Part shown: piece by piece, positions 2,200-30,800 of the stretch
How the letters are laid out: each line of letters begins with the position of its first letter
Numbering within the stretch: position 1 is the first letter of the stretch
Assembly (NCBI GenBank): GCA_002269645.1
Contig: NIVC01000137.1
Span: forward strand, 310,001 to 374,000
DNA length: 64,000 bases
Direction: 5' to 3'
Source: Macrostomum lignano
Lineage: Eukaryota
The notes under the pieces: model-generated
Told to the model about the DNA's origin: nothing
What the model saw: only the letters and a program-made list of their open reading frames with translations
The model's database searches: none
Program-made: the position numbers and the translations under genes

Positions 2200-3400
2200 C
2201 AATCTCAACCCCCGTTGGGGCTTTCCGTCCAAACTCCAACCACAGTTTTCCCCATCCACAAAATCCCCGATGCAAAGAATCTCACATGCAAGGAATTCCC
2301 CATCCAAAGAACCCCCATCAATAGAATCACCGATCCGAAGAATTCCCCATTCAATGAATCCTCTACTCAAGAAATCCACGATCTACAGAAGCCCCCTATC
2401 TAAAGAATCCCCATCCAAAGAGTCCCTCATCCACAGAATCCCCATCCAAAGGATCCCTCATCCACAGAATCCAAATATAAAGAATCCTCCATCCATCCCT
2501 ATTCAAAGAATCCCCCCATCCATCCCTATCCAAAGAATTTCCCCATCCATTTCTACCTAAAGAATCCCCCATCCATCCATACCCAAAGAATCCCCCCAAT
2601 GAATCTCCATCCAAATAATTCACATCATAATCCCAATCTAAATAAACCATAGATCTCCCATCTAGATAATCCCCATCAAAGAAATAATTGGCCAAAGAAT
2701 TCCCTCATCTAAAGAACCCCGTCCGAATAATCTCCATATAAAGAATCCAAAGAATATCCCATCCAAATAATCCCCCTATTATTAGAATTCTTGGCCAAAG
2801 AATCCCCTCATCTAAAGAACCCCCGTCCAAATGACCCCCATCTAACGAATCCTTCATCTAAAGAATCAACCATTTGAAAAAACCTTCATAAAAACAATGC
2901 CCCATCAAAAGAATTCCTTTATGAATCACCTATCCAAAAATCCCTCATCCATCCCTATTCAAAGAATCCCCCCATCCATCCCTATCCAAAGAATTTCCCC
3001 ATCCATTTCTACCTAAAGAATCCCCCATCCATCCATACCCAAAGAATCCCCCCCAGCATCCCTCAATTAAAAGCATCCCTCATCCAAAGAATCATCAATC
3101 CATAGAATTCCCCCCAAGACTTAACATCTCAGCAATTCCCCCAAGCCTCGACACTTCAGAAAATTCCCCCAAGCTTTGACATCTTACCAATTTCTCCCCG
3201 TCCGAAGCCTTGACATCTCAGCAGTCCTACAAGTAAGCCTCTATATCTCAGTTATTCCCTGAGTAAGCCTTTATATCTCAGTAACTCCCCTTGTAAGTCT
3301 TGACATCTTAGCAATTTCTCCCCGTCCAAAGCCTTGACATCTCAACAGTTCCCCATTAAGCCTTGAAATCTCAGCAATTCCCCTCCCCAAGACTTGACAT
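2200..3400. repeat. Degenerate AAGAATCCCCCATCC / CTTGACATCTCAGCAATTCCC repeat block, copy 1 (continues 12041-12310 after the Gypsy)
   Basis: Same motif order recurs at 12311-13755. Confidence 0.8.
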
Positions 3401-4100
3401 TGTTGAGTATCGGCCTAATGGCCGCTGGACGGGTCAAGGTTCGGGCCCTCCCCGCCTGAGACACCCCTGTCCCAGCCCTCACCCCGGCTATTCCTACCCT
3501 GTCTCACTCGGTTCGGCGAGAGTTCGCCTGACCGAACACCCTGGGATCGGCGAGAGTTCACCGTTCCCAGGTCCCTGCAGATCCCGGCCCCACGCGGCAA
3601 CCCAGAAGAACGAAAGCTCGAGCTCACCTCCTCTTGATATATCGAGTTACTAACGAAGCGTTTATTGGCCCGAAGCAGTTATTGGCACGCGAAGGCAGAG
3701 GTACGCCGATGAACGCAAAAACAGTAAGAACGAAGCGGACACCAATAGAGAGCAAACGTGGAGCGCAGCCCGCTCAGGGCTAGCATTTAAATAATACACA
3801 AAAAAGGGGGAGGGGTGGGGCAGAATGGAGACGGCGAGCCAAACCCTGGGGCCCAGCCGGCTTATCAGCCAGCCAGCCAATACGAGCAGCCCCAAGGTGA
3901 GGCGGGCAACGAGGGAGGGGGGGGCACCCAGATTGGACAGAGATTGGGCCGGGGGCTGGGTGCAAAGGGCTAGGCCAGGGTTGAGACTTACGCCTCTCAC
4001 AAACCCTGGCCCGGGCGCGAGACGGGGGACGGGGCGGGGTGGCATGAAAACTGAAAACAAAAGTACGAGTACATACACACTGGAAGGGCGCAGCCCAACA
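3401..4100 (-). repeat. 3' LTR
   Basis: Direct repeat of 11341-12040 (offset 7940); one mismatch seen (3895 A vs 11835 G). Confidence 0.98.
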
Positions 4101-4112
4101 TCCTCCCCCTCC
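4101..4112 (-). promoter_or_regulatory. Polypurine tract
   Basis: GGAGGGGGAGGA on minus, abutting the 3' LTR. Confidence 0.9.
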
Positions 4113-4339
4113 AAGAAAAAGAAGAGGAGAAAGGGGATGTCAAGCAAAAAGCAACGCATGAACAAGCAAGTCTGAAAAAAGTTAATTCAAAAAACGACGG
4201 CCGAAAAATAACAGAAAAACTTTGACGCGACGCGTGGATATCGCCGGCATTACAAAAAACAAAAACGAAAAAATGAAAACGGGACACAAACTATTGCGTA
4301 CGCAAAAATTGAAAACGGGCTTAAGAACGCAATTCTACT

Positions 4340-5782
4340 CTACAATCGGCCAAAAAATCTACTACAGTTGGTCGCAAACAGTCGAGTCCAGTACCTGCGA
4401 TCACATTCACTGTCCGCTAGGGCTTCCGGCACGAACTTGATGGCTGTCGGGTCCTTGGGGTCTCCACCAAACGGTGCGGCCGATGTCACTAGCAGGCGCT
4501 GCCGCGGGAGACGCTTAGCCCGTTGGACCGCTCGCGGGGATCCTCGGCACCGAGCGGACACCTCGAAGAAGACCCCGTGGCACTTGCTCACCAGCGCGGC
4601 CTCGACGGCCTCCGGCAAGTCCAGGTCCTCGGCCAGCATGACGCTCATCGCTTGAAACTCCGGCTGCCGGAGGAATCCTAGGGCGACCGCCCAGGCAGGT
4701 TCGCCGCCTTCAACTCGGAACAAAACCGGCAGGCCGAACTCCTTGGCAAGCAAGAACTGCTCCATCGCCGCCGTTAACTGGTCCTGGCGCTGCGACCTCT
4801 CAGCGTCCCAATTGAGCTCGACTTCGCCGACCGCCACGACACGCGGCCAGCTACCCGCTAGAAATCGTCGTACATCGTCTCGCAGCGATGGCCACCACGG
4901 TGCAGCACTGGCCTTCAGGCCCAGGGCGAACACGATCCGTCGGTCTTGCAGCAGTGGTCGGACAACGGGACATTCTAGACGCAGGCAGTACGGCGAGTTT
5001 ACAGCCGCTAGACATCGACGCACGCCACGAAGGTCCTCGGGCTGAATCGACCGGCCCAGCCTCGTTAGGTATGCCTTTGCATCGACGAGACGCTTAGCCG
5101 AGCTGACCTTGCGCTGATTCGGGTCGTCACGGGGGGAGACCTCCTGGACCGTGTCGGCCGGTCGTACTTGCTCGGGGTCGACACCCGTTAACTCTTCGGT
5201 CGCCAAGTCGCGCTGGGCCGTCAGCGGAGTCTGCGAAAGGTGCGGCCCGTCACTCCCCTCCTCCGGGCGCCGCGCGAGGCCAGGATCCACTAAGAGAGAC
5301 AGACCCCGGAGCCTCCCCAACAAGGGACCCCCCAACTCACACAGCTCAAAACCCCGCACAGCCAACAACACGCACTCAAACGCCGCCTGCAGCACCGAAG
5401 GCGGGACCCTCCGACACCTCCCGGAACCACCACCAGAACCTCTCTTCCGCCCATACTGATTGCACAGAAACGACACAGACACTGCTAAGAATCTAGACAA
5501 CTGCTCAGGCACACTCACACCAGCCCCATCAAGAAACCTCGCCACCTCCTGAACCACCAGGCAAGCTCCTTCACTATCCCCAGCCCTCAACCGCGCCAGC
5601 AGCGCACCCCTCAGCCGCCTACACTCAGCAAGCGCAGCCGGAGCCAATAACTCGGCTGGGATCTCCGCGTGAACTGGAGCTTCCCCTGCGGCGCTTCCCT
5701 TAAGACTAGCCAAAGCTAACCTGACCTGCTCGGGCAACTCAACGTCAGGGGGAGGATTGAAAAAGTAGGCGTACTTTAACAC
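4340..5782 (-). CDS. ORF3 main part: helical region plus C-terminal TatD-like TIM barrel (aa ~231-480) with most metal ligands substituted
   Basis: 480-codon ORF. Motifs LVDAKAYL, VFALGLKA, VVAVGEVELN, LAKEFGLPVLF, LPRQRLLVTSAAPF and TNCSRFF align in order with TatD IDxHxH, GxHP, AIGExGLD, LAxExxLPVxIH, IPxDRLLxETDxP and NxxRLF. Confidence 0.8.
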   Translation of the reverse strand: MLKYAYFFNPPPDVELPEQVRLALASLKGSAAGEAPVHAEIPAELLAPAALAECRRLRGALLARLRAGDSEGACLVVQEVARFLDGAGVSVPEQLSRFLAVSVSFLCNQYGRKRGSGGGSGRCRRVPPSVLQAAFECVLLAVRGFELCELGGPLLGRLRGLSLLVDPGLARRPEEGSDGPHLSQTPLTAQRDLATEELTGVDPEQVRPADTVQEVSPRDDPNQRKVSSAKRLVDAKAYLTRLGRSIQPEDLRGVRRCLAAVNSPYCLRLECPVVRPLLQDRRIVFALGLKASAAPWWPSLRDDVRRFLAGSWPRVVAVGEVELNWDAERSQRQDQLTAAMEQFLLAKEFGLPVLFRVEGGEPAWAVALGFLRQPEFQAMSVMLAEDLDLPEAVEAALVSKCHGVFFEVSARCRGSPRAVQRAKRLPRQRLLVTSAAPFGGDPKDPTAIKFVPEALADSECDRRYWTRLFATNCSRFFGRL

Positions 5783-6015
5783 CCCTTGACACGCTGCCTC
5801 CCAACCCGATCGTATACTTCCCGAAACACTGGGTCAGATAAAACGCACATCGCCATCACGTCTCGCTGAGACTCCGGAGACTCTACCTCGGCAGGACAGA
5901 CGCGGGGCCGCTTTGAGTACAGACGACTACACGCTGCCTCAATCTCCGCAGAGTTAGCAGTCCGACCCACGCCTAACACGCCATACAAATCAGTCGGTGT
6001 CGTTGGCGACGACAT
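5776..6015 (-). CDS. ORF3 N-terminal part: DnaJ/J-domain-like module without HPD; probably fused to 4340..5782 across a 1-nt break
   Basis: DLYGVLGVGRTANSAEIEAAC...VLSDPVFREVYDRVG matches J-domain helix I/II and helix IV patterns. ATG at 6015; overlaps the next ORF at a GGGG run. Confidence 0.7.
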   Translation of the reverse strand: MSSPTTPTDLYGVLGVGRTANSAEIEAACSRLYSKRPRVCPAEVESPESQRDVMAMCVLSDPVFREVYDRVGRQRVKGC

Positions 6016-6352
6016 GGTCCTCCTGCAATGATGACATTTAAACCCAATCACTACCTATGCCTTGCGGACTAGCAACTGTGACCCTGACCTGACCCATCCT
6101 ATGACATGTTTATTTTACAATACGATTGAGAACGCTTCTTGCCTAGCATACTTTGTAATTTTAATACATTTAATGTTTTTTACGTGCTTTCCATGCGTTC
6201 CATTTTATGATTTTTTTGTGCTTTGGGGTTGTATCATTTTTTTCATTTTAGGTTATTTTAGGCTTTCTACCATAGACAACAGCGTGGAGGCATTAATACA
6301 AGTGCATATTAAAAATCAATTTATGACGACCGCCTTGTGAGCCCACTGCGAA

Positions 6353-9300
6353 TTAACGATACAATACCGGATTCCCGTAATACGCTGGGGGCACACCCCG
6401 ACGCTCGCGCAGTCTGCGCGGAGACACGGCTGGCGCCGCTGGAGCCACCGGTGCGCATGGCGCAACTGGCGTTCCCGGCCCTACTATCCCATGCCGAGGC
6501 CCAACGGCAACTGGTGGCACCACATACGAGTAAAACTCCTCCTCCTCCTCAAGTTCCGGCTCTTTAGTCGCCGGCCCCGCGGGCTCCTGTCTGCACCCTG
6601 CCGGCTCAGGCGGATGCGCCGACCGGCGCTGCACTGCCGTATGCCTATTCATCAACCTGAACTGCTCAGGCCGCTCGGGTACTTTTCGCAAATTATTATA
6701 ATGCACTATTTTGCTCTTTCCCCTATTGGCGTGCTTTACCCGGTAATTCAAATCGGATATCTTCTCTAACACCTTCGCCGGCCCCTTCCAATTGCAATGG
6801 AACTTGGCTGCCTCCCCTGCCTGCAGCGCAGGCGAGTATTCTAGGACGGCATCCCCACTTCTATGGCCGGGCCTCGCACCCTTGAGTCGTACAGCACTTT
6901 CTGTTTCCTCTGGTACTGCTGCAGGTTGGTCCGCACCTGCGAATGAGCCTCAGCCAGACTATTACCTAATGACTGAACATACGCCGGAGCACTGGCAGGA
7001 ATGGACTCAGGCAAGGTTCCGATGTCCACTGGAAGCCGCATCTCCCTGGCGTACAGCATGTAGTACGGGGTGTACCCCGTGCCTCTGTGAACGCTGCTAC
7101 GGTACGCCATGAGAGACGGGTGGATCAGATCCTCCCAGTCTCCTTCGCCCACCGACTCACTCATCCTGCACTTGATCATTGACTTCAACGTCTTATTGAA
7201 ACTCTCAGCCTGACCATCAGCCATCGGGTGATAGGAGGACGTTCTGCATTTCTTAACGGCAAGCAACCGACACAACTGCTTCATCAAAGCCGACTCAAAA
7301 TTGGTGCCCTTATCGGTGACTAGAAATTCAGGACAACCAAAGTGCGCAATCCAGTGATCAAAAATCGCTCGCGCCACCGTCGGGGCTCGCTGATTCGACA
7401 AGGGCACCGCCACCGGCCACTTAGTAAAAGAATCCTGGATTGTCAGCACGAATCGATTGCCACCTCTGGACTTGGGCAACGGCCCGACAATGTCACTCAT
7501 GATCCTCTGGAAAGCTCCTTCCGAGCAGATTGGCTGCAAAGGCGCCCGGTTGCTGCGCCCAGGCTTCGCCTTCGCACAGTGGACACAGCTCCGGCAATAC
7601 TCTTCCACGGAACGACTCAGCCCCGGCCACCAGTATCTCGCCTTCACTTTCTCTTGTGTCTTCCTAACCCCAAGGTGCCCTCCTGCAACCCCATCATGAA
7701 GCTCACTGAGCACTTTCGGCAGCAAAGCCGGCGGCAGCAAGATCTTTTTCTGGCACCCACTCCCGGGACTCTGAAAATACAACAGATCAGACTCTACTCT
7801 TATCAGCTGCCGTTGTGCCCACAGCACACGCTCCTCCCACGACATCACTCTAGGCGCACTGGGGTTCGAACCCGGGTCCAGGGCATAGGAGCGGACAGCT
7901 GCAAGCTTCTTCTCGGCCACTTGCGCCTGCTGGACTTCCTTCGAAGACAGCCCACTGCCAAACACCGCGTTCACTACTGGCACATTCTCGCTAAACTGGC
8001 AGCTAGGGCAGCTCTCATGGCCAGCGTGTTTTCGGTACTTGCGAGACAGCGAATCAGCGTTGCCGTGCTCCTTGCCTGGCCTGTGAATGATCTCAAAGTC
8101 GAAGTTCTGGAGCGACTCAAGCCACCTTGCGCACTGACCCTCTACGTCCTTCAGACTGGCTAGCCACTGCAAAGCTTTGTGGTCTGAACGAACAGTGAAC
8201 TTTCTACCTAACAAATAGTACCTATACTTTTTGACGAAGTGCACGACGGCAAGCAACTCTAACCTGGTGGTGCAATAATTTTTCTCCGCCGCATGAATCA
8301 TCCTAGACCCGTAAGCGATCACCTTCTCACGGCCATCTGCTTGACGCTGTGACAGGACGGCTCCCAGCCCGACGCGCGAACTGGCGTCCGTGTCGAGGAT
8401 GAACTCCCCGGCACCAGGCGAAAAATCCGGGAATGCCATCACATTCGGTGAACACAAAGCGTCTTTCAGCCTGCAAAACGAACTCTCCTCTTCACTACCC
8501 CACTCAAACTTCACTCCGTCTGCGGTTAACCTATACAGCGGCGCTGCAATCTCCGAAAACTGCGGGATAAATGACTGATAGTAGGCGCACGTACCCAGGA
8601 ATGCCTGCACCTTCTTGGCGCTACATGGCCTCGGCCAATTCTGGATCTCCTCGCACTTGCTCGGGTCCGTTGCGATCCCCTCCTGAGAGACGATGTGGCC
8701 CAGAAACTTCACCCGCTCTGCGAGGAACACACACTTGGCGGGCTTCAGCTTGACATTGGCATCCCTCAGGCACTGGAAAACATGCTTCAATCGCTCGAGA
8801 TGCTGACCCACCGACTTGGCGAACACGACTATATCGTCAAAGTACACCAGGCACTCCTTCCAGTTAACCTCAGACAGGGCCATAGACATTAGCCTGGCGA
8901 ACGTAGCGGGAGCATTGCGCAAGCCAAAACTCATGCACTTCCAGGCGAACTGACCCCTGTTGGGTACCACGAACGCCGTTTTCAACTGGTCCTTCGGCTC
9001 AATCGGGCACTGATGATAGCCGGAGGCCAGATCCATCGTCGAGAAAACACAGTTCCCTCCTAGCGCATCAAGCGTCTCGTCCATCCGCGGCGGTGGGTAA
9101 GGATCTGGCACTGTGACCTCGTTAAGGCGCCGATAGTCTAGACACAACCTCAAGCTACCGTCGGCCTTTTTAACCGGCACGATCGGGCTCGCCCACGGAG
9201 AGTAGCAGGGATAGATGCGATCCTGCTGCAACAACTCATCAACCTGCTTATCAATTTCCTCCTTCCAGCGCGGTGGAATCCTACGCGCGGGCTGACTTAC

Positions 9301-10290
9301 TGGCTTGGCGTTGCCGGTGTCAATCTCATGCGCCATCAAGTGTGACTGTCCCAACTCCGAGCTATCCCTGGCAAAGACATCACGATTCCGAGCCATCAGG
9401 CGCTCAAACTCGTGCTTCTCATCGCCCGTCAGGCCACATCCTCCCCACTCCTTGACATCGCTGAGGGGGTTCCAGTCGTCTCGGACACTCTCCACCGAGT
9501 TCACCTGCCACCCAGCTGGCTGCTGGGCCGCCACTGGGGAGAACCAACCAATTCGGCTTCCCTTCCTTAATGACAGACTGCATCCTGACGTGTTCAACAC
9601 CCTGACAGCCAAGCGACCGTCCCCGTCAGGCATCTGTACCGATCTGGCCACCATCTGCTCGTTACTCACTCTCCTCTCAGACTCCACAATGCCTAGGAAC
9701 TGAACCCCAGAGGGAACCCTTCTCTGCAACCTGACGTGCACCACCTTCTCTTGACCTGCATTGAACTGCTCAGGCTGACTCAGCACCAGACGGCAAAGAC
9801 GCGGCTTATCTGCTGATAAGCGAAACGGATACACACAGGATGCAGTCTGCAAGCAATTCCTAGCAAAGTCAATCGCCATCCCGTGTCTCACGAAAAAGTC
9901 AGTGCCCAGAATACATGCCACAGCCAGTTCCTCGACCACAGCGAACTCGTGCAAAAACTCGGTGTCCCCAACAGAAAACTTCATCGTCACCATTCCATGT
10001 ACAGCAATCGGTTCCCCATTGGCAGCGAAAACGGAAAAATTCGGCAAATTCGGCAATAAGTCAATGTCGGCTTTTTTAGACTTCAGGAAACGGTTGCTTA
10101 ACAACGACACGGTGGCCCCGCTGTCAAGCAGACATGCAATCGGGGGCCCAAACCTAAACTGTGCATCCACATAGCCCAGTCCCTGCCGACTCAGCACACT
10201 CTGGGACAAGGCCGCGGCCCCCGATGCACCCGGATTCACTGACGCTGGGGCCCGGACGGGTGCCCCGGCCGAGCCCCCAATCCGTTTCCC
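6353..10290 (-). CDS. pol: Pol: aspartic protease, reverse transcriptase, RNase H, integrase; 1-nt break near 6855
   Basis: LLDSGATVS; LRLCLDYRRLN, YFDDIVVF; ILDTDAS, HGNADSLSR; GGHLG..C..C, DIVGPL, TDKGTNF. ORF 6841..10350 continues in ORF 6353..6772 (KFHCNWKGPAKVLEKISDLNYRV). Confidence 0.97.
10226..10290 (-). promoter_or_regulatory. -1 programmed ribosomal frameshift signal (G GGA AAC, 6-nt spacer, H-type pseudoknot)
   Basis: Heptamer 10284-10290 is in the gag frame and pol is in the -1 frame. Stem 1 GGGGCUCGG/CCGGGCCCC, stem 2 GCACCCG/CGGGUGC. Confidence 0.85.
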
Positions 10291-11216
10291 GAACCCGACT
10301 GGTCCCACCGACGATAGCAGCGGTTGCGCATGTGCCCTGACTGGCCACACTCCCGGCAGACCACTGCATTACGGCACCGAGCCGTAGTATGCCCTGTCTG
10401 CAGGCACCGACCACACTGCCTCTGCTGCTGACTCTGCTCAGGGGCTCGATGCTGCAAGCTCACTTTTGGCTGCTCAGACCTTGCTGTCGCCATCGGCGCA
10501 GTGGGCGCTGCAGCACTTGCTTTTAGCTGAGCCACTTCCGCTTTCAGAGCTGCTATCTCGGCGGCTGCCCTGGACTCCTGGCTGTTGCCAGCCGCTGCGG
10601 CCTGACCCCCCACCATGTGCACAGCTCGCTTGCCCTCGGGCTCCATCAGAGCCAACGATGCCCTCACTTGACGCACCCGCCTAATAGCGTCCTGGAGCGT
10701 CTCTGGCGCTTGCAGCAGCACGCTCTCCAGCACCCGGGCTGGCACCCGAATCCCCTTCAAAAACCTGTCTTTCACCAACTCTTCTCGCTGGGCCGCTGGC
10801 AGCATTGGGTACGATTTTCTCATAAGCTCCTTGAGCACGTCTGCATATTCTTCAATGGGCTCGCCATCTTTCTGATTCCTACTCTGGAACTCGGTCTTGT
10901 AATCTTGAGCAGTCCTATTCTCATCAAACCTAGCCTCTAGCTGCTCAACAAACTCATCATACGGCAAATCATCGGCCAACTCAAGATTCGCAACAGCCTT
11001 AAAAGCAGTATTAAAGTCAAGCAGACTGAGCAGCGCCTGCTTGCGCTGATCCCCTAGAATATGAGCCGCCTCACAATACCCTGTGAATTGTTGCATCCAA
11101 AGGGCAAAGTCCTGTGTGGGCACGTACTTATTTGGCCTCGGCACCCGCTGTGCCACATTAAGTTCGTTTTGCAGACGCGCCGTCAGGGCGTCAATCAGAT
11201 CGTCTAAATTGGCCAT
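10236..11216 (-). CDS. gag: Gag with two CCHC zinc knuckles
   Basis: ATG at 11216 (MANLDDLIDAL); CGRCLQTGHTTARC and CRECGQSGHMRNRC. Confidence 0.95.
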   Translation of the reverse strand: MANLDDLIDALTARLQNELNVAQRVPRPNKYVPTQDFALWMQQFTGYCEAAHILGDQRKQALLSLLDFNTAFKAVANLELADDLPYDEFVEQLEARFDENRTAQDYKTEFQSRNQKDGEPIEEYADVLKELMRKSYPMLPAAQREELVKDRFLKGIRVPARVLESVLLQAPETLQDAIRRVRQVRASLALMEPEGKRAVHMVGGQAAAAGNSQESRAAAEIAALKAEVAQLKASAAAPTAPMATARSEQPKVSLQHRAPEQSQQQRQCGRCLQTGHTTARCRNAVVCRECGQSGHMRNRCYRRWDQSGSGNGLGARPGHPSGPQRQ

Positions 11217-11320
11217 GGCTACAAAAACACAGAGACAACCGAAGCAAACAACACACAAATAAACTAGGCAACACACACAACCCTAAACACACGGCAGGAC
11301 AGCAGGGGAGAGGACCGCTG

Positions 11321-11338
11321 ATCCTGGTCACGGCACCA
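11321..11338 (-). promoter_or_regulatory. Primer-binding site complementary to tRNA-His(GUG)
   Basis: TGGTGCCGTGACCAGGAT, 2 nt from the 5' LTR; complementary to the ...ATCCTGGTCACGGCA-CCA end of invertebrate tRNA-His. Confidence 0.9.
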
Positions 11339-11340
11339 CT

Positions 11341-12040
11341 TGTTGAGTATCGGCCTAATGGCCGCTGGACGGGTCAAGGTTCGGGCCCTCCCCGCCTGAG
11401 ACACCCCTGTCCCAGCCCTCACCCCGGCTATTCCTACCCTGTCTCACTCGGTTCGGCGAGAGTTCGCCTGACCGAACACCCTGGGATCGGCGAGAGTTCA
11501 CCGTTCCCAGGTCCCTGCAGATCCCGGCCCCACGCGGCAACCCAGAAGAACGAAAGCTCGAGCTCACCTCCTCTTGATATATCGAGTTACTAACGAAGCG
11601 TTTATTGGCCCGAAGCAGTTATTGGCACGCGAAGGCAGAGGTACGCCGATGAACGCAAAAACAGTAAGAACGAAGCGGACACCAATAGAGAGCAAACGTG
11701 GAGCGCAGCCCGCTCAGGGCTAGCATTTAAATAATACACAAAAAAGGGGGAGGGGTGGGGCAGAATGGAGACGGCGAGCCAAACCCTGGGGCCCAGCCGG
11801 CTTATCAGCCAGCCAGCCAATACGAGCAGCCCCAGGGTGAGGCGGGCAACGAGGGAGGGGGGGGCACCCAGATTGGACAGAGATTGGGCCGGGGGCTGGG
11901 TGCAAAGGGCTAGGCCAGGGTTGAGACTTACGCCTCTCACAAACCCTGGCCCGGGCGCGAGACGGGGGACGGGGCGGGGTGGCATGAAAACTGAAAACAA
12001 AAGTACGAGTACATACACACTGGAAGGGCGCAGCCCAACA
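11341..12040 (-). repeat. 5' LTR
   Basis: Copy of 3401-4100. TATA-like TATTTAAAT at 11725-11733 and AATAAA at 11601-11606 on minus. Confidence 0.98.
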
Positions 12041-12310
12041 ACATCTTATAAATTCCCCCTTAAGCTTTGACATCTCAGCAATTCCCCCCCACAAGACTTG
12101 CATCTCAGCAAGTCCCTCTTAAGCCATCACATCTCATTAATTCCCCTAGGTAAGATTTTATACATGTATTTCAATAATTCCCCCTGTAAATCTTGACATC
12201 TTAGAATTCTCTTCCGAGCAAGCATCCCCCTAAGAGCAAGCGTCCTTCCGATAACAAGCATCCCCTGATAGAAAGTACTCCCACCAAGATTAGTGAAACG
12301 ATTTACTCAG

Positions 12311-13755
12311 CTAGCCAATTCCAAACCCCTTTGGGGCTATTCGTCCAAACTCCAACCACAGTTTTTCCAAGCAATAAAATTTCACCCAACTGAATCTCAA
12401 ATTTAAAGAATCCCCCTTCCAAACAATCCACCACCCATAGAATCTACGATACAAAGAATCTCACATGCAGAGAATCCACCATCCAAAAACCTCCCATCGA
12501 TAGAATCCCCGATCCGAAGAATTCCCCCTTCAATGAATCGTCCTATCTGAATAATTGCCCATCCATAGAATCTTCCATGCAGAGAATCCCCATCCAAAGA
12601 ACCCCCATCGATAAAATCCCCGATCGGAAGAATTCCTCTTCCAATGAATCCCCCATCGACAGAATCCCCTATCCAAAGAATCCACCCATCCATCCCTATC
12701 CAAAGAATCCCCCCATCCATCTCTATCCAAAGAATCCCCCATCCATCCCTATCAAAAGAATCCCCCCATCCATCCCTATCCAAAGAATCCCCCATCCATT
12801 CCTATCCAAAGAATCCCCCATCCATCCCTATCCAAAGAATCCCCCCATCAATCTCTATCCAAAAAATCCCCCTATCCATCCTTATACAAAGAATCCACGA
12901 CCTCCATCTATATCCAAAAAGTCCCCCTCCAAAGAATCCTAATCCAAATAATGCAAATATTCACTCATCCAAATAAACCTCCATCAAAAGAATCATTGAA
13001 TCTAAAGAATATGAATCTGAGTCCCCTCATCTAAAGAACCACGTTCAAATAATCCAAAGAATCTCCATCCAAAGAATCCAAAGAATCTCCATCCAAAGAA
13101 TCCAAAGAATCTCCATCCAAAGAATCCAAGGAATCTCTCATCCAAATAATACCCCATCAATAAAATCCTAGGCCAAAGAATCCCATCATCTAAAGAATCA
13201 CCGTCCAAACAATCTCATCAAATCCAAAGGATCCCTTTAACGAAAGAATCCTTCATCTAAAGAATCCCCCACATTAAAAGAGCCCTTCATCGAAAGAATC
13301 CCCCATCGATGGAATTTCCTAATGAATCACCTATCTAAAGATATCCATTAGAAGCAGCACTCATGGAAGGAATCCCCAATCCATAGAATTCCCCCCAAGA
13401 CTTGTCATCTCAACAATTCCCCCCGAGCCTTGAGACCTCAGTAATTCTCTCTTAAGCTTTTACATCTCAGCAATTCGCTCTCAAGACTTGAAATTTCAGG
13501 AATTCACCCGCCAAGACTTGACGTCTCATAAATTTTCCTTCGCTTTGACATCTTAGCAGTCTTCCAAGTAAGCCTTTATATCGCAGTAATTCCCCAGTAA
13601 GTCTGCATATCTAAATAATTCCCCAGTATGTCTTGACATCTTAGCGATCTCACCCGATCAAGCATCCCCTAACAGCAAGCGTCCTTTCGATAGCAAGCAT
13701 CCCCAGATAGAAAGTAACCCAAGCAAGATAGTGAAACAATTTACTCAGCTAGTAC
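12311..13755. repeat. Second diverged copy of the ~1.45-kb degenerate repeat block
   Basis: Shares start (ctagccaat...gtccaaactccaaccacag) and end (gatagaaagta...tttactcagctag) with copy 1. Confidence 0.8.
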
Positions 13756-14974
13756 AATAGTTAGTTTCTTATCAAGTGCAATAATCCTTTTCAAAATTCT
13801 AAGTTTAATAAAAATTTTTGAATATACTACATGAACGCTAGTAGCTTTTTCTCTTTTAACTGATTTACCGGACGTTTTTTACAGTTAAAATAAAAAACTT
13901 TTACTCTCTAAAAATTCGAACCCACGTCGCTTTATTAACAGTTCAGTCTGTTCACCTCTAGGCTAACTCTCATTGTTTCGATAACATGAATTGTAGCACT
14001 ATATATAATTCAACACTGAAAACTCCAAGAATAGTGTAGAAATCACTCGAAGCAAGTTATGACATAATCAATTTCTCAGGCAGTCTGCATCAGTTTCAAT
14101 TGAAGTCAACAAAATTGTTACGCAATCTAAATTTAAATACAATGGCGCTGGCTTGAATTGTGGAGTTGCGATAAAGTAGGGGTTTGCGATATGGAAGAGC
14201 GTACAATGAGTATATAAAGTAAAAAGTAAAGAAATCATCTTTTTAATGCTGTGCTCTTAATTTATTGAATCTCAGAAAACAAATTGTATTCCCGAACTCA
14301 GCGTTTCTAGCTCTTTCTAACAATACAAGGCTCTCTTGTGAAAGTGAAAAACCCGAAGCACAAACAGCGATTACACATTCCTGCTTGAAAGCATTGAAAT
14401 TAAATAGGTGTACATCCAGCGCCAGCTACAGTGAGAGGCCTGCAAGTTGATGCATTGAAATTAACAACCAAGCAATGCCTGGACAAATTGAATAGCGACA
14501 CCCTCCCCCAAATTTCAATAACTTAAAGGTGTTGCGCAACCTTTCAACGCTTGTAGCTTTCCACGCCAGTGTAGAGAACCAATGCTATAGTTGGCACTGA
14601 GTTATGATGCAATACAATTCCATTGGCAGTCAGAACGCTTCTCAATCGGAAAAAAACTGTTTGAACTTAAAAAAACGGGGCAAAAAATAGAGTTTTTTGA
14701 ATATTTAAGCCCGAAAAAATGAAGCAATTTCTTTGCAAAATTTTGTGTACCAGTGCACCATAAATACACATCGAATGCAGCAAACCCCACAAAATTCGGA
14801 CCACGCAAAGTCAAGTTAAACGAAGGTTCCTATAGATATATACTAGCAATCTTCGCCCCCCGTTGGGGGACATCTGTATAGAATCTCTGCTCTCTACAAG
14901 TAACAAAAAGATAGCCAAATAAAGCATTCACAAAGAAAACAGACAAAATACTTAAATGAAGTGCAATGCAAAAA

Positions 14975-15505
14975 GACAGCAAGCATCCCCCAGATAGCAA
15001 GCATCCCCCAGATTGCAAGCAAATCCCGGATAGCAAGCATCCCCCAGATAGCAAGCATCCCCCAGATAGCAAGCATCCCCCAGATAGCAAGCATCCCCCA
15101 GATAGCAAGCATCCCCCAGATAGCAAGCATCCCCCAGATAGCAAGCATCCCCCAGATAGCAAGCATCCCCCAGATAGCAAGCATCCCCCAGATAGCAAGC
15201 ATCCCCAGATAGATAGCATCCCCCAAATAGCAAGCATCCCCCAGATAGCAAGCATCCCCAGATAGATAGCATCCCCCAAATAGCAAGCATCCCCCAGATA
15301 GCAAGCATCCCCAAGGTAGCAAGCACCCCCAGATAGCAAGCATCCCCCAGATAGCAAGCACCCCCCAGATAGCAAGGATCCCCCAGAAAGCAAGCATCCC
15401 CAAGATAGCAAGCTTCCCCCAGATAGCAAGCATCCCCCAGATAGCAAGCATCTTCCAGAGAGCAAGCTCCCCCAGATAGATAGCATCCCCAAATAGCAAG
15501 CATCC
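14975..15505. repeat. 18-bp minisatellite GATAGCAAGCATCCCCCA
   Basis: Direct tandem copies. Confidence 0.95.
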
Positions 15506-15599
15506 ACCAGACAATAAGTAGCTAGTGCGACAATTTCCTTAGCATTATAGTGGCTCCTTTAAAATACGCTTACTTTTACGTTTGAAATTGTGTATCTTT

Positions 15600-18140
15600 T
15601 ATGTTTGGCATGGTGGCTCTTTAATGTTTGACATGGTGGCTCTTTTATGTTGACATGGTGGCTCTTTTATACTTGACATGGTGGCTCTTTACTGTTCGAA
15701 ATGGTGGCTCTTTTATGTTTGACATGGTGGCTCTTTTAGGTTTGACATGATGGCACTATTATGTTTTGACATACTGGCTCTTTAATGTTTGACATGGTAG
15801 CTCTTAAATGTTTGACATGGTAGCTCTTAAATGTTTGACATGGTAGCTCTTTTATGTTTGACATGGTGGCTCTTTATTGTTTGACATGGTGGCTCTTTAA
15901 TGTTTAACCTGGTGGCTCTTTTATGTTTGACACGGTGGCTTTTATTGTCTGACATGGTGGCTCTTTTATGTTTTACATGGTGGCTCTTTATTGTTTGACA
16001 TGGTGGCTCTTTAATGTTTAACCTGGTGGCTCCTTATGTTTGACACGGCGGCTCTCTAATGTTTGACATAGTGGCTATTTAATGTTCGAAATGGTGGCTC
16101 TTTAAAGTTTGACATAAAGTCACAAATATGTTTGAGATGGTGGCTCTTAAATGTTTGACATGGTGGCTCTTTAATGTTCTTCATGGTGGCTCTTCAATAT
16201 TCTACATGGTGGCTCTTTTATGTTCGACATGGTGGTTTTTAATGTTTGACATGGTGGCTCTTTTATGTTTGACATGGTGGCTCTTTACTGTTTGAAATGG
16301 TGGCTCTTTAATGTTCTACATGGTAACTCTTTTATGTTTGATACGGTGGCTTTTTAATGTTTGACATGGTGGCTCTTAAATGTTTGACATGGTGGCTCTT
16401 CTATGTTTAACATGGTGGCTCTTAAATGTTTGACATGGTGGCTCTTTAATATTCTACATGGTAACCCTTTTATGTTTGATACGGTGGCTTTTTAATGTCT
16501 GACATGATGGCTATTTTATGTTTGAAATGGTGGCTCTTTTATGTTTGACATGGTGGCTTTTTAATGTTTGACATGTTGGCTCTTTAATGTTAGACAAAGT
16601 GGCTTTTTAATGTTTGACATGGTGGCTCTTTTATGTTCGACATGGTGGCTTTTTACTGTTTGAAATGGTGGCTCTTTAATGTTCTACATGGTAACTCTTT
16701 TATGTTTGATACGGTGGCTTTTTAATGTCTGACATGGTGGCTATTTTATGTTTGACATGGTGGCTCTTCTATGTTTAACATGGTGGATCTTAAATGTTAG
16801 ACACGGTGACTCTATAATGTTCAACATGGTGGCTCTTTAATTAATATTCTATATGGTGGCTCTTTTTTGTTCGACATAGTGGCTTTTTTGTTCTACATGG
16901 TAACTCTTTTATGTTTGATACGGTGGCTTTTTAATGTCTGACATGGTGGCTCTTAAATGTCTGACATGGTGGCTCTTAAATGTTTGACATGGTGGCTTTT
17001 TAATGTTTGACATGGTGGCTCTTTACTGTTTGAAATGATGGCTCTTTAATGTTCGAAATGGTGGCTCTTTTATGTTTGACATGGTGGCTCTTTACTGTTT
17101 GAAATGATGGCTCTTTAATGTTCGAAATGGTGGCTCTTTTATGTTTGACATGGTGGCTCTTTTAGGTTTGACATGATGGCACTTTTATGTTTTGACATAG
17201 TGGCTCTTTAATGTTTGACATGGTAGCTCTTAAATGTTTGACATGGTAGCTCTTAAATGTTTGACATGGTAGCTCTTAAATGTTTGACATGGTAGCTCTT
17301 TTATGTTCAACATGGTGGCTCTTTATTGTTTGACATGGTGGCTCTTTAATGTTTAACCTGGTGGCTCTTTTATGTTTGACACGGTGGCTTTTATTGTCTG
17401 ACATGATGGCACTTTTATGTTTTGACATAGTGGCTCTTTAATGTTTGACATGGTGGCTCTTAAATGTTTAACCTGGTGACTCTTTTATGTTTGACATGGC
17501 GGCTCTCTAATGTTTGACAAAGTGGCTATTTAATGTTCGAAATGGTGGCTCTTGAAAGTTTGACATAAAGTCACATATATGTTTGAGATGGTGGCTCTTA
17601 AATGTTTGACATGGTGGCTCCTAAATGTTTGACATGGTGGCTCTTTACTGTTTGAAATGGTGGCTCTTTAATGTTCTACATGGTAACTCTTTTATGTTCG
17701 ACATGGTGGCTTTTTAATGTCTGACATGGTGGCTCCCAAATGTTTGACCTGGTGGCTCTTTAATGTTCTTCATGGTGGCTCTTTAATATTCTACATGGTG
17801 GCTCTTTTATGTTTGATACGGTGGCTTTTTAATGTCTGACATGGTGGCTATTTTATGTTTGACATGGTGGCTCTTCTATGTTTAACATGGTGGCTCTTTT
17901 ATGTTTGACACGGTGGCTCTTTAATGTTCGACAAAGTGGCTATTTGATGTTTGATATGGTGACACTTAAATGTTTGACATAAAGTCACATAAATGTTAGA
18001 CGTGGTGGCTCGTTTAGTTTTGACATGGTGGCTTTTTAATCGTTGACATGGAGTCACGTATATGTTTGACATAGTGCTTATTTTATGTTTGGCATGGTGG
18101 CTCTTTTATGTTTGACATGGTGGCTCTTCTATGTTTGACA
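15600..18140. repeat. 23-bp satellite TTTGACATGGTGGCTCTTTTATG (~110 copies)
   Basis: Direct tandem copies with point variants. Confidence 0.95.
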
Positions 18141-19022
18141 TTCCGCTTCTATTATGTTTAGCAGTTTTGTGTTTTTAAGGTGTTTTGATAAAAAAATCTT
18201 TTTGCACTACTAAGATTCGAACCCAGGTCGCTACATTAGCATTCCAGTCTGTTTGCATCTTGGCTATCTATTTTCAATTGGAGAACATGAATTGTGGCCC
18301 TTATAATTCAATTCTTACAGCAAGTCAATTGGAGTAAAAAGTTATGACATAATCAATTTCTCAGTCAGCCAGTATCAGTCTCAATTTGAGTTAGCAATAT
18401 GGTTACGAAATTTCATTCAAGTCGTGTGTGCATTTCTTCGGCACTGTTTTCAACTTGTTGTGATGCAATCTTTATCACAATCGGAATTCAGCCAGTCAGT
18501 TTTTTCTCTAGCATTCTTACAATGAATTTTAGGTCGAAAGAGCTGCTTGACCTTTGCAAAAAAGCATGTTTTTCGAATATTTAATCCCTTTAACATTGAG
18601 AAATTTCTTAGCCAGGATGCATGTACCGTCCCAGGAAAATTTCCGATCGAATGGTGCAAGTTTGAAGAAAATCGGTTGAGCCGTTTTTTCTGGAATCTAT
18701 CTCACACATACACACAGACATTTCATTTTTAGTATATAGGAAGATAGGTAGATAGGTAGGTACATAGTTTTGATTTTTAGTATATTGGATAGATAGGTAG
18801 GTACATAGTTTTGATTTTTAGTATATTGGAAATAGATATATAGATAGGTAGATAGGTAGGTACATAGTTTTGATTTTTAGTATATTCGAAATCGTTGAAT
18901 TGTGTGGCTGTTCTACTAGAGGAATATCATAGGAGGTAAGTCATCTATTTGTTGTGAGCTGCGCCTCGCAATGCCTTTGCCCTGACCTCTTCGCTCTTCG
19001 CCCCTCCTCTCCCTGTCACTGG

Positions 19023-21479: not shown

Positions 21480-22290
21480 TAGAACCACCGAGCTCATGCT
21501 GGAATGCAGCATCAGCCCTGATAAAAGGAGGACGTGATGCCACCCGAACTCTGGTCTGACAGCGAAGAGTCGGGTCATCATCTTCGGCCCGAAGACCACG
21601 CTGACGAAAGAGAACCGCCAAAAATATGATCGAAAAGAAGCCATCAATATGATCGGTCCGTTCAACTTTATCATACACGCGGGGGGGGCTCTGTAACCGG
21701 TTACTGCGGTAGCAGAACGAGGACGGTCCAGAAGGCCTGTCCAACATGCTTAAACAGCTCCGCTGTGCAGCTGGCAATCCCTGCTCGTCTATGCAAGCAG
21801 AACTCAGCACTTTAGCTAGGCACCCGTTGGTAGATGGATCAGACAGAGCCTTGGACGGCGGCGGCCATCTTCAGCGACAGTCAGAACAGCCTCCATTTGC
21901 TCTAGGGGCTGCATCGCTAACCCGATAGCCGCTGACATCATAACCTGTATCCGTTACCTCGAGAGCAAAGGTCACGTAGTGCACATGTTCTGGGTTCCCG
22001 CGCACTGTGGTCTGTTGGGCAATGACATGGTCGATGATCTCGCCAAACTAGCGACTGAGGAGCCACAGGAGGGCGTTGAATGCTTGCTCTCGACGTGCAA
22101 AGTAAAAATCCGCCGTGAAATCAGAGCACAGGTCACCCGGTCCCATGGAAGGAGCATTGAGATGGCCCCGCCGGCCTTGCCAAGCAAACGAGGTACGATA
22201 GCCGGGCAGAGGCAGACAGCTTCAAAAGGTTTAGAACTGGACACTCCCTGGACCTGGCCGCATACCGCCATCGCATTGGCACACTAATGT
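21480..22290 (+). mobile_element. Second degenerate non-LTR RNase H fragment
   Basis: QAELST, IFSDSQNSLHLL, MFWVPAHCGLLGNDMVDDLAKLA. Confidence 0.65.
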
Positions 22291-22561: not shown

Positions 22562-24956
22562 TTGAAATGCAGCACTGTACAGTGGGCGAGAAGGGGCAGG
22601 AAGGGAAAAGATCCAAAAGTTAAAGATCCTAGGATTAATCTAACCTTTAGAGTAACCAGAGACAACAGGGCTGGCTGCACACCTCCTGAACTGGCCAACC
22701 CGAGCGTTAGACCGCCAGACGAGGCTATCACGTGCGACCTCGACAACGAGGATTCAATTCGTCGCAGAGCCAGTCAGGATGCTGCCAATCTGGAAAAAAT
22801 TAGATCAAGGTCGAACAGCAAAACTAGGCAACTAAACTCTACTAACGCACAACAAACTACTGAGCAATCAAACTCTGCTACTCAGCTTACTCAGCAGTCG
22901 CTACCAGACACCCAGCAAAATCAGCCAGAGTCTCAGCAGGCACAACCAATCACCCAGCAACACTCAAAAAACACTCAGAAAGCACACTCAGCCACTCAGC
23001 AACCAGACACACAGCAGCCAGCCACTCAGGCTAGCACTAAGCCAAAGCACTCAGACACTCAGCAACCACAAACAGACACTCAGCAGTCACAGCCAGCAAA
23101 CATGCAAGTTGCTAACAGGCAATCTAATCAGCCTAAGCAGACAGCTCAACCGACAGCTCAAGCTAGCCATCAACATGCTCAGGCATCTAGTCAATCCAAC
23201 ACAATACTTAAGCAACAAGCAATTGTCAGACACTCACACACAGAAGCCTAACAGCTACGAATTGCCGCAGCAAACAACTAACCAGCAATCAAACACTCAC
23301 TCACAGCAATCAAGCACTCGCACACAGCAGGCAAGCACACACACTCAGCAGTCACAAGCACGCACTCAGCAACAATCTAACAAATCTAAAATTGCACCGA
23401 TCATAATTGAAATGCCCATTGAGGCAAAGAACCCAATCAAGTTCGAGCAATTCTTGAAAAAATAATTTTCCAGAAACTCGCATAATTTCTGTCAAAGAGC
23501 TGTACCACAGCTCGGGGTACTATGTATTTGCCAGCACACAACAGGAAATGAACAAACTACTAACAGCACCACTAAGACTAACTGAAATCAATGGGCAAAC
23601 AGTATCCAGACGCCTGCCATCAAACAGACCGCGTCAACAGGCTGACGACAGACTGCGCAAGCCATAAAAGTCACCCAAGGTTCAATCCATCATAGTCAAG
23701 GGGTCCCTCTCGCTGTGGAAGTGGAGGAACTCTTGGCGTACCTTAGGGAAAACTATGCGCACCTGCAATTCAAAGGAGCTTTGAGAATAGTCTCCAAAGC
23801 AACGGGGCGACCTACGCCACTAATCAGACTTTTCTCGAACAGCAAAGGCACCGTTGAGTATGTTATACACGGCCACTCTCATTCTCTGCGCGGGCTATTT
23901 TATTCCAGATGCACATTGAGCTGATGTACGTGCAAGGTTGATTGTACGTGTAATGGGATGTACGTTTCTCTCGCATCGAACCCTTAGGTTGGCTCTTAAA
24001 TATATATATCGCAATCAATGCCCAAGTCGGGGCCGAAGTCTTACTCAGCAAATTATCTCTGTTTCGCGTCAGTCACTACAGAGTACTGCCTTGAGAATGG
24101 TATCCGGCTTGGAGCGCTTAGATTCCGATGCGAAGAATCTCACAACTTGCCTCCAGTCAAGGAGGTACAGTGCCAGCGCTGCCAAGGGCTGGGGCACACA
24201 GAGAATCGCTGCAGTGCCGACTTCGTTTGCAGCAAGTGCGCCGGTGCACACTTCTCAGGTGACTGCCCAGAGGACACGGCATTCAAGTGTGCCAACTGTG
24301 GCGGAAACCATCCGGCCTATTCCTTCAGATGTGAAAAGGTACGCACTGCTAGCAGGCTTGCCACGGAGAAAGAACACAGCCGCATCCAAGCACTTAAAGT
24401 TAAATTTAATCAGTCAAAACCAACTGAGCAATTAGGTACTAGTGATAGGATAGATAGTCAGTTCTTGGCCGAGACCTTCGGTGTGCCGGGGCCACTGACC
24501 TACGCCGACATGACAAGACCAAGACCAAGGCCTACTCTCAGCCCTATTGTCTACTCCAATCGTGCCGCTGCCGCTGCTGCTGCCCAACCGAACATGGTGA
24601 CCAATCAGACCGCGCTTCCTGCTGACAACGCCGTGCCGGCAATGAGCAAGCAGTCTGCACTACCGACCAGCAGCGCTGAGCCAGCCCAAGCTGAACCAAT
24701 AACGGACAATGCTGCTCCCAACGTTGTAACCGGTGAGAGGGGCTTCACGCAGAATGATGTGCTCGGGGTGGTACTTGAGGCACTCAACCGGATCATGGAG
24801 ATTGAACCGGGGCGTCTGCTCACTGCCTGGGAAGCAAGCCAGCTTGCTATTCGGGTAGTGACGGAGGTCCTGGCGACCTTCTTGAATCCCGGAAGGGTGC
24901 CTGCTGCCAGGGCAGGTGAAGCCAAAGCCACTTCGGTGAGCGGAGGCGGATCCTAA
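22562..24956 (+). pseudogene. LINE ORF1 (Gln/Thr/Ser-rich N-terminus, PRE_C2HC-like region, 3 zinc knuckles), broken
   Basis: CQRCQGLGHTENRC, CSKCAGAHFSGDC, CANCGGNHPAYSFRC; split over ORFs 22562, 23109, 23715 and 24018. Confidence 0.8.
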
Positions 24957-29699: not shown

Positions 29700-30800
29700 A
29701 CTAGAGCTATCTTATTGATTTATCTTATTTATTATTGAAGTTTATTTATTTACCCAGCCATTTTCTGTGATTTCGCACCACGGATTATGGTTAGCCCTCA
29801 CCCCGTGCCCTCTTATTGGCTGTCGCTGTCATCTCTTATTATTGTTTCGTAACCCTTTTTGCTTTCTGCGTGGCTGCAGCCAATCCCCTCTCGCTCTCTG
29901 CCCCAACCGCTGTTTCTCTTACCATGCAGCTTTAACCCCACTCCATTTTGAGCTGACGTATTTATTGGCGTGCGTGCCGCCCTCCTGTCTCACGCGTGTG
30001 TTGTTTTCCCCGTTCTGATTCGCTTCTACTAGTTACCCTCTCAACTCCCGAGTGCCAAAACTGCGCAACTTTCTTTCTTTTGGGGTTCTGTGCTTCGGAT
30101 CTTTTCAACAGGGCCTGTGCGTTCGCTGCGACCCTAGTTGCCGGCCTACTGCCTGCGCGTTAGTGTGACAGCGGGTTGGCAAGCAGCAGGACTGGGTGCA
30201 GAGTCTCCCTGCTCGTATAGAGCGCGAGACGAAGCCGGTTGGTCTGTCTCGGGACACTCGGGGTCTCGGGACGTCTTGTATTCAAACTGTCCATAGTAGT
30301 CTGCGCTGGCTGCATTCGTTCAAGAATGTTAAAGGTCAAGCTGCGAGATGGCTGTAGCAGCTAGTCTGCTTCGACTACACGATGGTCTATCGAGCAGTCC
30401 GGGACCACGGGAATGCCGATGGGTTATCACGAAGGCCGAGGAGCCACTTTAGAGCAACCACGTGCCTGTCCTGCAATGAACAGCCCGAGATCAGTGCAGT
30501 CATAATCGAGTCAGAACTCCAACAGCGTGTCCGTGAAGCACAGCTCAAGCATCCTAAACTGCTTCCGCTAAGACAGGCAGTACAGACAGGGCAACTAGAT
30601 TCGCTTGGAACTGGGCACCGGTCACCAGAAACGCCCTTCTGGAAGGCGCTGATGGCCAGAAAAGATGAACTGTGCATGGTCAATGACCTGTGCGTCAGGA
30701 CAGAGAAGAAGTTCAAAGTTGAACTTCCCGAACAAGGTGCCGCGGAATCTGAGGCGGGTAGTCGCTCTGCGGCTGGGGCAGCGCAGAGGGGCGCACGGGC
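29700..30800 (+). mobile_element. Decayed Gypsy piece (LTR-like segment plus RNase H/integrase linker) related to the intact element
   Basis: 30382+: YRAVRDHGNADGLSRRPRSH..TCLSC vs intact Pol HRPGKEHGNADSLSRKYRKH..SCPSC. Confidence 0.65.

What the first reader, a model, noticed from the sequence alone, without database searches (positions are those of the whole stretch)
4340..5092. The TatD-like domain looks like a pseudo-enzyme
Seen: the N-terminal D-x-H-x-H is DAKAY, the GxHP loop is GLKA, the IH of strand 5 is LFR, the HCF position appears as LAED and ETD is TSA. Only the GE glutamate (VAVGEV) remains. Motif spacing and the C-terminal N..RFF helix are preserved, with no stops. Inference: the fold is selected while catalysis is lost. 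It could be a decoy, a dominant-negative for host TatD-family nucleases, or a protector of single-stranded RNA/cDNA intermediates.
Basis: partly seen in the sequence, partly recalled or inferred. Interest (0 to 1): 0.7.

Follow-up and report, generated by a model that had tools for sequence, protein, structure and literature searches.

The report
Dead TatD nuclease in flatworm retrotransposon
A recently inserted jumping gene carries an extra gene whose DNA-cutting domain has lost nearly all the residues needed to cut, so it probably helps the element by binding something rather than as an enzyme.

Summary
Observation confirmed. The minus-strand stretch 4343-5092 is a TatD-fold domain (Pfam 7e-6). 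It keeps 1 of 8 active-site residues but 30 of 52 other TatD-conserved positions (p=0.02).

It ends a third ORF inside a young Ty3/Gypsy LTR retrotransposon (3401-12040; LTRs 699/700 identical; 4-bp target duplication). A 97% identical protein is labelled Macrostomum lignano. ORF3 is an HPD-less J-like domain, a four-helix bundle and the pseudo-TatD. In this copy a frame break separates the J part, and pol has another.

One diverged relative (about 50% identical) lacks the same ligands and is open, which favours selection on a non-catalytic fold.

Caveats: the retained Glu is the only residue whose single mutation clearly reduces both TATDN1 activities. An acidic trio (E161, D162, E183) shared with the relative could form a rewired site. 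The N-terminal motif lies in a poorly modelled part.

Best reading: a non-catalytic adaptor. Nothing supports the dominant-negative idea. Captured enzyme ORF3s are known from rotifer elements; seven literature searches found no TatD one. New variant of a known kind.

The parts
11341..12040 (-). 5' LTR (700 bp, TG...CA)
   Evidence: 699 of 700 positions identical to the 3' LTR, mismatch at 3895; no canonical heat-shock element; splice-donor-like site near 11569
11322..11339 (-). primer-binding site, starting TGG one base inside the 5' LTR boundary
   Evidence: sequence shown; that it fits a tRNA-His 3' end is recalled, not tested
10236..11216 (-). gag with zinc knuckles
   Evidence: Pfam Retrotrans_gag 9.5e-5, zf-CCHC 0.025; ATG at 11216
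6841..10368 (-). pol (PR-RT-RNase H-integrase), overlapping gag in another frame, with a slippery-type heptamer at 10290-10284
   Evidence: Pfam RVT_1 6.6e-33, RT_RNaseH 2e-33, rve 6e-8, protease 1.4e-6; heptamer located, its role in -1 frameshifting recalled
6353..6949 (-). integrase C-terminal part, in a different frame from pol (frame break near 6860)
   Evidence: Pfam Integrase_p58_C 2e-9; frames shown
6016..6352 (-). AT-rich spacer ending in a splice-acceptor-like AG (6024-6023), 7 nt before the ORF3 ATG
   Evidence: sequence; both database gene models P0001 and P0002 read as if they join an upstream exon here (my reading of their sequences)
5776..6015 (-). ORF3, first part: J-like domain with RPR in place of HPD; separated from the rest by a frame break near 5790-5800 in this copy
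   Evidence: Pfam DnaJ 7.8e-5; 20 PDB sequences matched at E<=0.01, all DnaJ/Hsp40 proteins but one labelled only 'HCG3 gene', best 5.4e-6; P0001 and P0002 read J and the rest in one frame
5297..5656 (-). ORF3, middle: predicted four-helix bundle, followed by a probably disordered linker to about 5110
   Evidence: single-sequence model, pLDDT about 45-70 over residues 49-168; structural matches are generic bundles, Z<=10; no Pfam or NCBIfam family
4340..5092 (-). ORF3, C-terminal TatD-fold domain lacking 7 of 8 active-site residues (the finding)
4101..4112 (-). polypurine tract
   Evidence: purine run directly before the 3' LTR
3401..4100 (-). 3' LTR; 4-bp target-site duplication ACAT at 3397-3400 and 12041-12044

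Best explanation
The domain is a TatD-derived pseudo-nuclease that ends an accessory ORF3 of a Ty3/Gypsy LTR retrotransposon, probably of the flatworm Macrostomum lignano. Shown: its place between the LTRs, downstream of pol on the same strand; TatD ancestry; loss of 7 of 8 active-site residues; the same losses in a diverged open relative; a J-like domain without HPD in front. Inferred: ORF3 is made from a subgenomic message that uses the acceptor 7 nt before its ATG (cis-spliced from the LTR donor, or trans-spliced). It binds no catalytic metal pair and acts as an intracellular adaptor for the element. Lys, Lys and Arg stand where three His were and may replace the metal's charge, so that the pocket holds a phosphate or nucleic-acid end without cutting. 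The helix after strand 5, almost invariant between the two relatives, together with the bundle and the J-like domain, would bind proteins, either of the element's particle or a host restriction or silencing factor. The partner is unknown; I rate protein and nucleic-acid ligands about equally likely.
For: Ligand-specific loss: 1 of 8 against 30 of 52. In TATDN2, loss of the ETD Glu alone abolishes activity, and E. coli TatD E201A and D203A are reported defective (PMC10711561 passages). QatD E194A and D196A strongly reduce activity (PMC13434339 passages). Both residues are gone here. P0003 shares the Arg at the strand-5 His and lacks the other ligands. The neutral model gives P(no stop) about 0.015, and identity is enriched at fold positions. 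13 of 14 columns of the segment after strand 5 are identical between window and P0003 while mostly unlike TatD. The N-terminal third has net charge +9, against 0 to -9 in the 8 TatDs that cover it. The second domain is degenerate too. Rotifer ORF3s are described as separate, typically spliced units (PMC5408684 passage). 38.8% of M. lignano genes are trans-spliced (PMC5730564 passage).
Against: No assay. The one kept ligand is the only TATDN1 residue whose single Ala mutant reduced both activities; the single His and Asp mutants had little or partial effect. E161, D162 and E183 are shared with P0003 and lie at strand ends; their geometry could not be measured. The C-terminal two-thirds is not more basic than ordinary TatDs (net -2 against -14 to +2). 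TATDN2's catalytic domain alone did not bind R-loops, and its E593A mutant bound weakly. Selection rests on one diverged fragment whose genomic setting is unknown; for P0003 alone the ligand test is not significant (1 of 5 against 26 of 45, p=0.17). The confident model was seeded with 9 TatD sequences; the single-sequence model gave no barrel (pLDDT 40). No expression data were seen, and this copy has frame breaks in ORF3 and pol.
Confidence: 0.55

Rival explanations
1. Rewired enzyme: the kept Glu plus new acidic residues at the ends of strands 5-7 form an all-carboxylate Mg/Ca site, and the domain still cuts nucleic acid or hydrolyses another substrate.
For: E96, E161, D162 and E183 are shared by the window and P0003, and position 134 is Glu or His. 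E96 is the essential bridging ligand, and single His or Asp losses are tolerated in TATDN1. TATDN2 needs only two acids. Rotifer ORF3 DEDDy and GDSL domains keep their catalytic residues.
Against: All five His and both ETD acids are lost together. Arg at the strand-5 His position in both relatives would be expected to occupy the metal site (inference). E161 and D162 align to the two residues after the strand-6 His (Cys and Phe/Tyr in TatD), not to a ligand column.
Confidence: 0.17
2. Unselected relic: a captured host TatD gene that is decaying, with ligand loss a by-product of divergence.
For: Only 16-20% identity to solved TatDs. The N-terminal part models poorly. This copy has a frame break in ORF3. 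Very few relatives: 3 close hits among 1.84 billion representatives. Rotifer ORF3s showed no intragenomic departure from neutrality.
Against: Open frame of 497 codons. The diverged relative is open and conserved at fold positions. Ligands are lost more often than other conserved sites. A spacer, acceptor-like site and ATG are kept in front.
Confidence: 0.1
3. Decoy or dominant-negative aimed at host TATDN nucleases, which might otherwise degrade the element's RNA:DNA intermediates.
For: TATDN2 degrades the RNA strand of R-loops and is germ-cell expressed in medaka (PMC12709183 passages), so host TATDN could plausibly restrict a retroelement.
Against: Low identity makes surface mimicry unlikely. 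No call or passage read shows TatDs working as obligate oligomers or restricting retrotransposons. The most conserved surface segment mostly differs from TatD.
Confidence: 0.08
4. The J-like part and the TatD part are separate products, or the middle is a spliced-out intron, so the adaptor architecture is wrong.
For: The two parts lie in different frames in this copy, and the J frame's own last residues align acceptably to DNAJB13. P0001 and P0002 skip about 95 codons of the middle at a strong donor-like site.
Against: Two database models with different flanks read J and the rest continuously without skipping residues. The skipped segment is in frame and free of stops. The gene models are unverified predictions.
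Confidence: 0.1

Closest known systems
TatD/TATDN nucleases (Pfam PF01026; S. aureus 6L25/2GZX, E. coli YcfH 1YIX, YjjV 1ZZM, TatD 4PE8, human TATDN1 8EFG, TATDN3 2Y1H)
   Same: Same TIM-barrel fold: the top ten VIA-align rows include all these TatD-family entries, Z 16.6-22.4 (best Z 22.4, rmsd 2.9, 223 aligned); other amidohydrolases reach Z<=15. Motif spacing and the bridging Glu are kept.
   Different: Lacks the HxH or (G/A)xN motif, the loop His, both site-B His and the ETD acids. Fused behind a J-like domain and a bundle. Encoded by a retrotransposon.
Enzyme-derived ORF3s of bdelloid rotifer LTR retrotransposons Juno/Vesta (DEDDy exonuclease, GDSL esterase; PMC5408684)
   Same: Non-env ORF3 downstream of pol in a Ty3/Gypsy-type element, derived from a cellular hydrolase, in one case a 3'-5' exonuclease; function untested.
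   Different: Different fold. The rotifer LTR ORF3s keep their catalytic residues (residue-less GDSL derivatives are reported only for the Penelope-like Athena-L family). TatD does not occur in that paper (0 occurrences).
Inactive nucleases kept as binding modules (Maelstrom, EXD1; as described in PMC5408684)
   Same: Nuclease fold without catalytic residues, proposed to bind rather than cut.
   Different: Those are host piRNA-pathway proteins of the DEDD fold acting against transposons; this one is carried by the transposon.
M. lignano Ty3/Mdg4 families (Mag, CsRN1, Gmr1/Osvaldo, Mdg3/Micropia; PMC12801592)
   Same: Same superfamily and probably the same host (P0002 label).
   Different: The parts read (3 of 6) and the 5 supplements (0 hits for TatD) describe no TatD ORF. 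This element's LTR has no heat-shock element. Its clade was not determined here.

Membership tests
TatD nuclease family (PF01026) | TatD-type TIM-barrel and detectable homology | tested here: met
   Pfam 7.2e-6 (26 bits, cut-off 27); profile against PDB best 3.1e-5; Foldseek and VIA-align top hits TatD (model seeded with TatD sequences)
TatD nuclease family (PF01026) | N-terminal HxH (class II) or (G/A)xN (class I) motif | tested here: not met
   K-x-Y in alignment A2; no His in residues 7-90. The register is uncertain (pLDDT <50 nearby).
TatD nuclease family (PF01026) | Bridging Glu at the end of strand 4 | tested here: met
   E96, 4825-4823, also in P0003
TatD nuclease family (PF01026) | His on strands 5 and 6, loop His, and E-T-D on strand 8 | tested here: not met
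   R, A, K and T-S-A; strands placed consistently in the model at pLDDT >70 for most of residues 60-256
TatD nuclease family (PF01026) | Metal-dependent 3'-5' exonuclease / AP-endonuclease activity | not testable with these tools
   needs purified protein
TATDN1 / TATDN2 / TATDN3 clades (donor) | Phylogenetic placement with eukaryotic paralogues | tested here: inconclusive
   No eukaryotic TATDN sequence was available for a tree. Class II chains scored above class I (3e-5 to 3e-3 against 0.02 to 0.18), which is weak; no TATDN2 chain appeared in that list.
Ty3/Gypsy LTR retrotransposon | LTRs TG..CA, target-site duplication, PBS, PPT, gag, pol in the order PR-RT-RH-INT | tested here: met
Ty3/Gypsy LTR retrotransposon | Clade (Mag, CsRN1, Gmr1/Osvaldo, ...) by RT phylogeny | not tested
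   no reference RT set on hand
J-domain (Hsp40) co-chaperone | J-domain homology | tested here: met
   Pfam DnaJ 7.8e-5, below cut-off; PDB best 5.4e-6
J-domain (Hsp40) co-chaperone | HPD motif (recalled as required to stimulate Hsp70) | tested here: not met
   RPR at that position; also in P0001 and P0002
env-type ORF3 | Envelope or fusion-protein homology | tested here: inconclusive
   No such Pfam match. Only 1 BFVD match at E<=0.001, an uncharacterised Yasminevirus protein. No membrane-segment predictor was run.

The most novel reading that the evidence does not exclude
Flatworm Ty3/Gypsy elements carry a dedicated counter-defence protein built from two disarmed host domains: an HPD-less J-domain and a TatD barrel whose metal ligands are replaced by Lys and Arg. 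It caps cDNA or RNA:DNA intermediates against TATDN-type nucleases, or jams an Hsp40/Hsp70-dependent step of small-RNA silencing. It would be a pseudo-enzyme anti-restriction factor of an animal LTR retrotransposon and would point to TATDN proteins as retroelement restriction factors.
Probability: 0.15. Interest if true: 0.8.

Novelty: new variant of a known kind. Interest (0 to 1): 0.48.

Why it matters
What non-env ORF3s do for animal LTR retrotransposons is an open question; the rotifer cases are untested. This adds a new captured fold and a case where selection seems to keep the fold while dropping catalysis in two domains of one protein, which argues for a binding role. If the host is M. 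lignano, which has RNA-seq data and transgenesis, expression and partners can be tested directly. It also offers a natural ligand-less TatD for asking which functions of the family need no metal. The family looks narrow (three close relatives found), which limits its generality.

Tried and rejected
Word-indexed search with residues 245-497: 0 of 3771 candidates passed. Profile searches gave 4 of 8000 (P0003 and three TatDs) and 1 of 8000 (P0002). Exhaustive phmmer gave 10 hits at E<=0.001, 3 of them close. A wide family could therefore not be shown; eukaryotic repeats are probably thinly covered by these protein sets (inference).

Cluster membership of the hits could not be looked up (query not made).

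PHROGs and PADLOC gave no family for the domain or P0003. Phage tblastn gave 5 weak partial matches, none covering 80%; not followed.

Single-sequence folding of the 486-residue frame failed for the barrel. The middle domain has no distinctive fold match, and Atlas scores for J plus middle were <=0.83, leads only. The J row of the composition table was out of frame and is disregarded.

A link to the ligand-less P0006 was considered. Its profile score (57.4) is close to that of an ordinary TatD (52.4), so I treat it as convergence. Heat-shock control was rejected: no HSE in either LTR. No tree was built, since only unnamed or bacterial TatDs were on hand. No complex prediction was run, since no specific partner is claimed.

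Literature: no paper held TatD+Gypsy+LTR. The listings showed no TatD-bearing retrotransposon (listings only; one search was too broad to be informative). Subscription journals, Repbase reports and the earlier M. lignano LTR survey cited in PMC12801592 were not searchable or not read. Long sequence runs in supplement 5 were shown cut.

Full report
Context. The stretch lies on the minus strand inside an LTR retrotransposon spanning 3401-12040. Its two 700-bp LTRs differ at one position and are flanked by a 4-bp duplication, so this copy is very young. Inside are a primer-binding site and polypurine tract, gag, and pol in the Ty3/Gypsy order PR-RT-RH-INT. The integrase tail lies in another frame (6353-6949). 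After an AT-rich spacer comes a third coding region: a J-like domain (6015-5776) and, overlapping it in another frame, a 497-codon open frame (5833-4340) that ends in the TatD-like domain. No second copy lies in the window. A 97% identical protein, P0002, is labelled Macrostomum lignano in UniRef, so the host is probably that flatworm (inference).

Observation. TatD ancestry is supported by four comparisons: Pfam 7.2e-6, TIGR00010 3.8e-5, a two-sequence profile against PDB whose 11 of 11 matches are TatD-family, and Atlas features. I took the eight active-site positions from the QatD and TATDN1 papers (passages and sections) and mapped them by motif onto alignment A2. The window has K, Y, K, E, R, A, T, A where 8 of 9 reference proteins keep all of H, H, H, E, H, H, E, D that they cover. 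One of 8 is kept, against 30 of 52 other conserved columns (p=0.024; p=0.048 under a stricter set). The N-terminal assignment is the weakest part: Pfam starts at residue 51, and model residues 13-50 are below pLDDT 50.

Structure. The AlphaFold model (mean pLDDT 73) matches TatD structures best (Foldseek E 3e-7; Z up to 22.4, rmsd 2.9 over 223 residues). Its strands put R132, A160 and T209 at the ends of strands 5, 6 and 8, as the alignment does. This model was built with nine TatD sequences in its alignment, so it shows compatibility, not independent proof; without them the barrel did not form. By sequence, E161, D162 and E183 are candidates shared with P0003.

Is it dead? For: five His and both ETD acids are gone together. 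Loss of the ETD Glu alone abolishes TATDN2 activity, and the matching E. coli mutants are reported defective (PMC10711561, passages). QatD mutants at these two acids lose most activity (PMC13434339, passages). Against: in TATDN1 only the bridging Glu mutant reduced both activities, while single His and Asp mutants were largely tolerated (PMC10085689 section 15), and that Glu is the one kept here. Its retention has another reading, a salt bridge to the Arg that replaces the strand-5 His in both relatives (inference). I put loss of canonical nuclease activity at about 0.8.

Is it selected? An exhaustive search of 1.84 billion representatives gave 10 hits: two near-identical gene models, one 166-residue relative at about 50% (P0003), and seven distant TatD-family proteins. 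P0003 keeps the Glu and lacks the other four ligands it covers. At that divergence a simple neutral substitution model expects about 4 stops in 163 codons, P(no stop) about 0.015, ignoring indels. Identity is higher at TatD-conserved columns (30 of 45) than elsewhere (50 of 113; p=0.014). This favours purifying selection after the ligands were lost, but it rests on one fragment whose genomic setting is unknown. The young LTRs mean that the open frame in this copy is by itself weak evidence.

The rest of ORF3. The J-like domain has RPR where HPD stands (the need for HPD is recalled), so two domains are disarmed. P0001 and P0002 read it in one frame with the rest, and both appear to join an upstream exon at the AG 7 nt before the ATG. 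Both also skip about 95 in-frame codons of the middle; they are unverified predictions. The middle folds as a generic four-helix bundle. A donor-like site lies in the 5' LTR, and trans-splicing is common in M. lignano (PMC5730564, passages), so a subgenomic message is plausible but not shown.

Mechanism. The most likely reading (0.55) is a non-catalytic adaptor. For nucleic-acid binding: Lys, Lys and Arg replace three His, and the N-terminal third is basic (net +9 against 0 to -9). Against it: the rest is ordinary in charge, and TATDN2's catalytic domain alone did not bind R-loops. For protein binding: a segment after strand 5 is identical in 13 of 14 columns between the two relatives and mostly unlike TatD, and the other two domains are typical interaction modules (inference). 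Rivals are a rewired acidic site (0.17), a decaying relic (0.10), separate or differently spliced products (0.10) and a decoy against host TATDN (0.08).

Comparison and novelty. By the defining residues it is not a member of the active TatD nucleases, though it descends from them. The donor paralogue is unresolved, with a weak lean to class II. The nearest known arrangement is the enzyme-derived ORF3s of rotifer LTR elements (PMC5408684: part 1 of 5 and passages), which keep their catalytic residues. The M. lignano LTR paper (PMC12801592: parts 1-3 of 6 and a term search of its 5 supplements) does not mention TatD there. Seven searches showed no TatD-bearing retrotransposon, within a library that lacks most subscription journals and Repbase. 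PMC6962438 (passages) lists a 'TATDN2' among transposon-like genes in the squid Hox cluster, a lead only. PMC12709183 was seen as passages. Ligand-less TatDs are not unique, since P0006 is another.

Verdict: a real feature and a new variant of a known kind, of moderate interest (0.48). Its function is inferred, not shown.

Noticed in passing
window about 31300-31698, minus strand: LTR-like stretch with five canonical heat-shock-element matches on each strand (31456-31690). Its first 23 bases equal the start of a Mlig-id55 CsRN1 LTR shown in supplement 5 of PMC12801592 and then diverge. Probably a related heat-inducible family; a pol-like remnant lies at 30280-30690 on the plus strand.
   Followed up: partly
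window 6841-6949 and 5776-5833: Two frame breaks in an element whose LTRs differ at one base; assembly error or real mutation could not be told apart.
   Followed up: partly
P0006: A second TatD-family protein lacking ligands (1 of 6 covered columns kept), apparently unrelated to the element; suggests that pseudo-TatDs arose more than once.
   Followed up: partly
window about 2200-3400 and 12040-13700: The element is inserted in a degenerate satellite-like repeat present on both flanks.
   Followed up: no
window 14900-18160, 33400-36100 and 49230-50963: Long tandem arrays that create spurious long ORFs.
   Followed up: no
window 21820-22287 and 24000-24956, plus strand: RNase H-like and zinc-knuckle gag-like fragments, resembling non-LTR retrotransposon remnants.
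   Followed up: no
window 45318-46178 (minus) and 41211-42500 (plus): Open frames that look like host exons; the first resembles a PI3K-related kinase domain (by eye, recalled).
   Followed up: no
BFVD A0A5K0U911: A giant-virus (Yasminevirus) uncharacterised protein is the only strong viral structural match to the TatD model.
   Followed up: no
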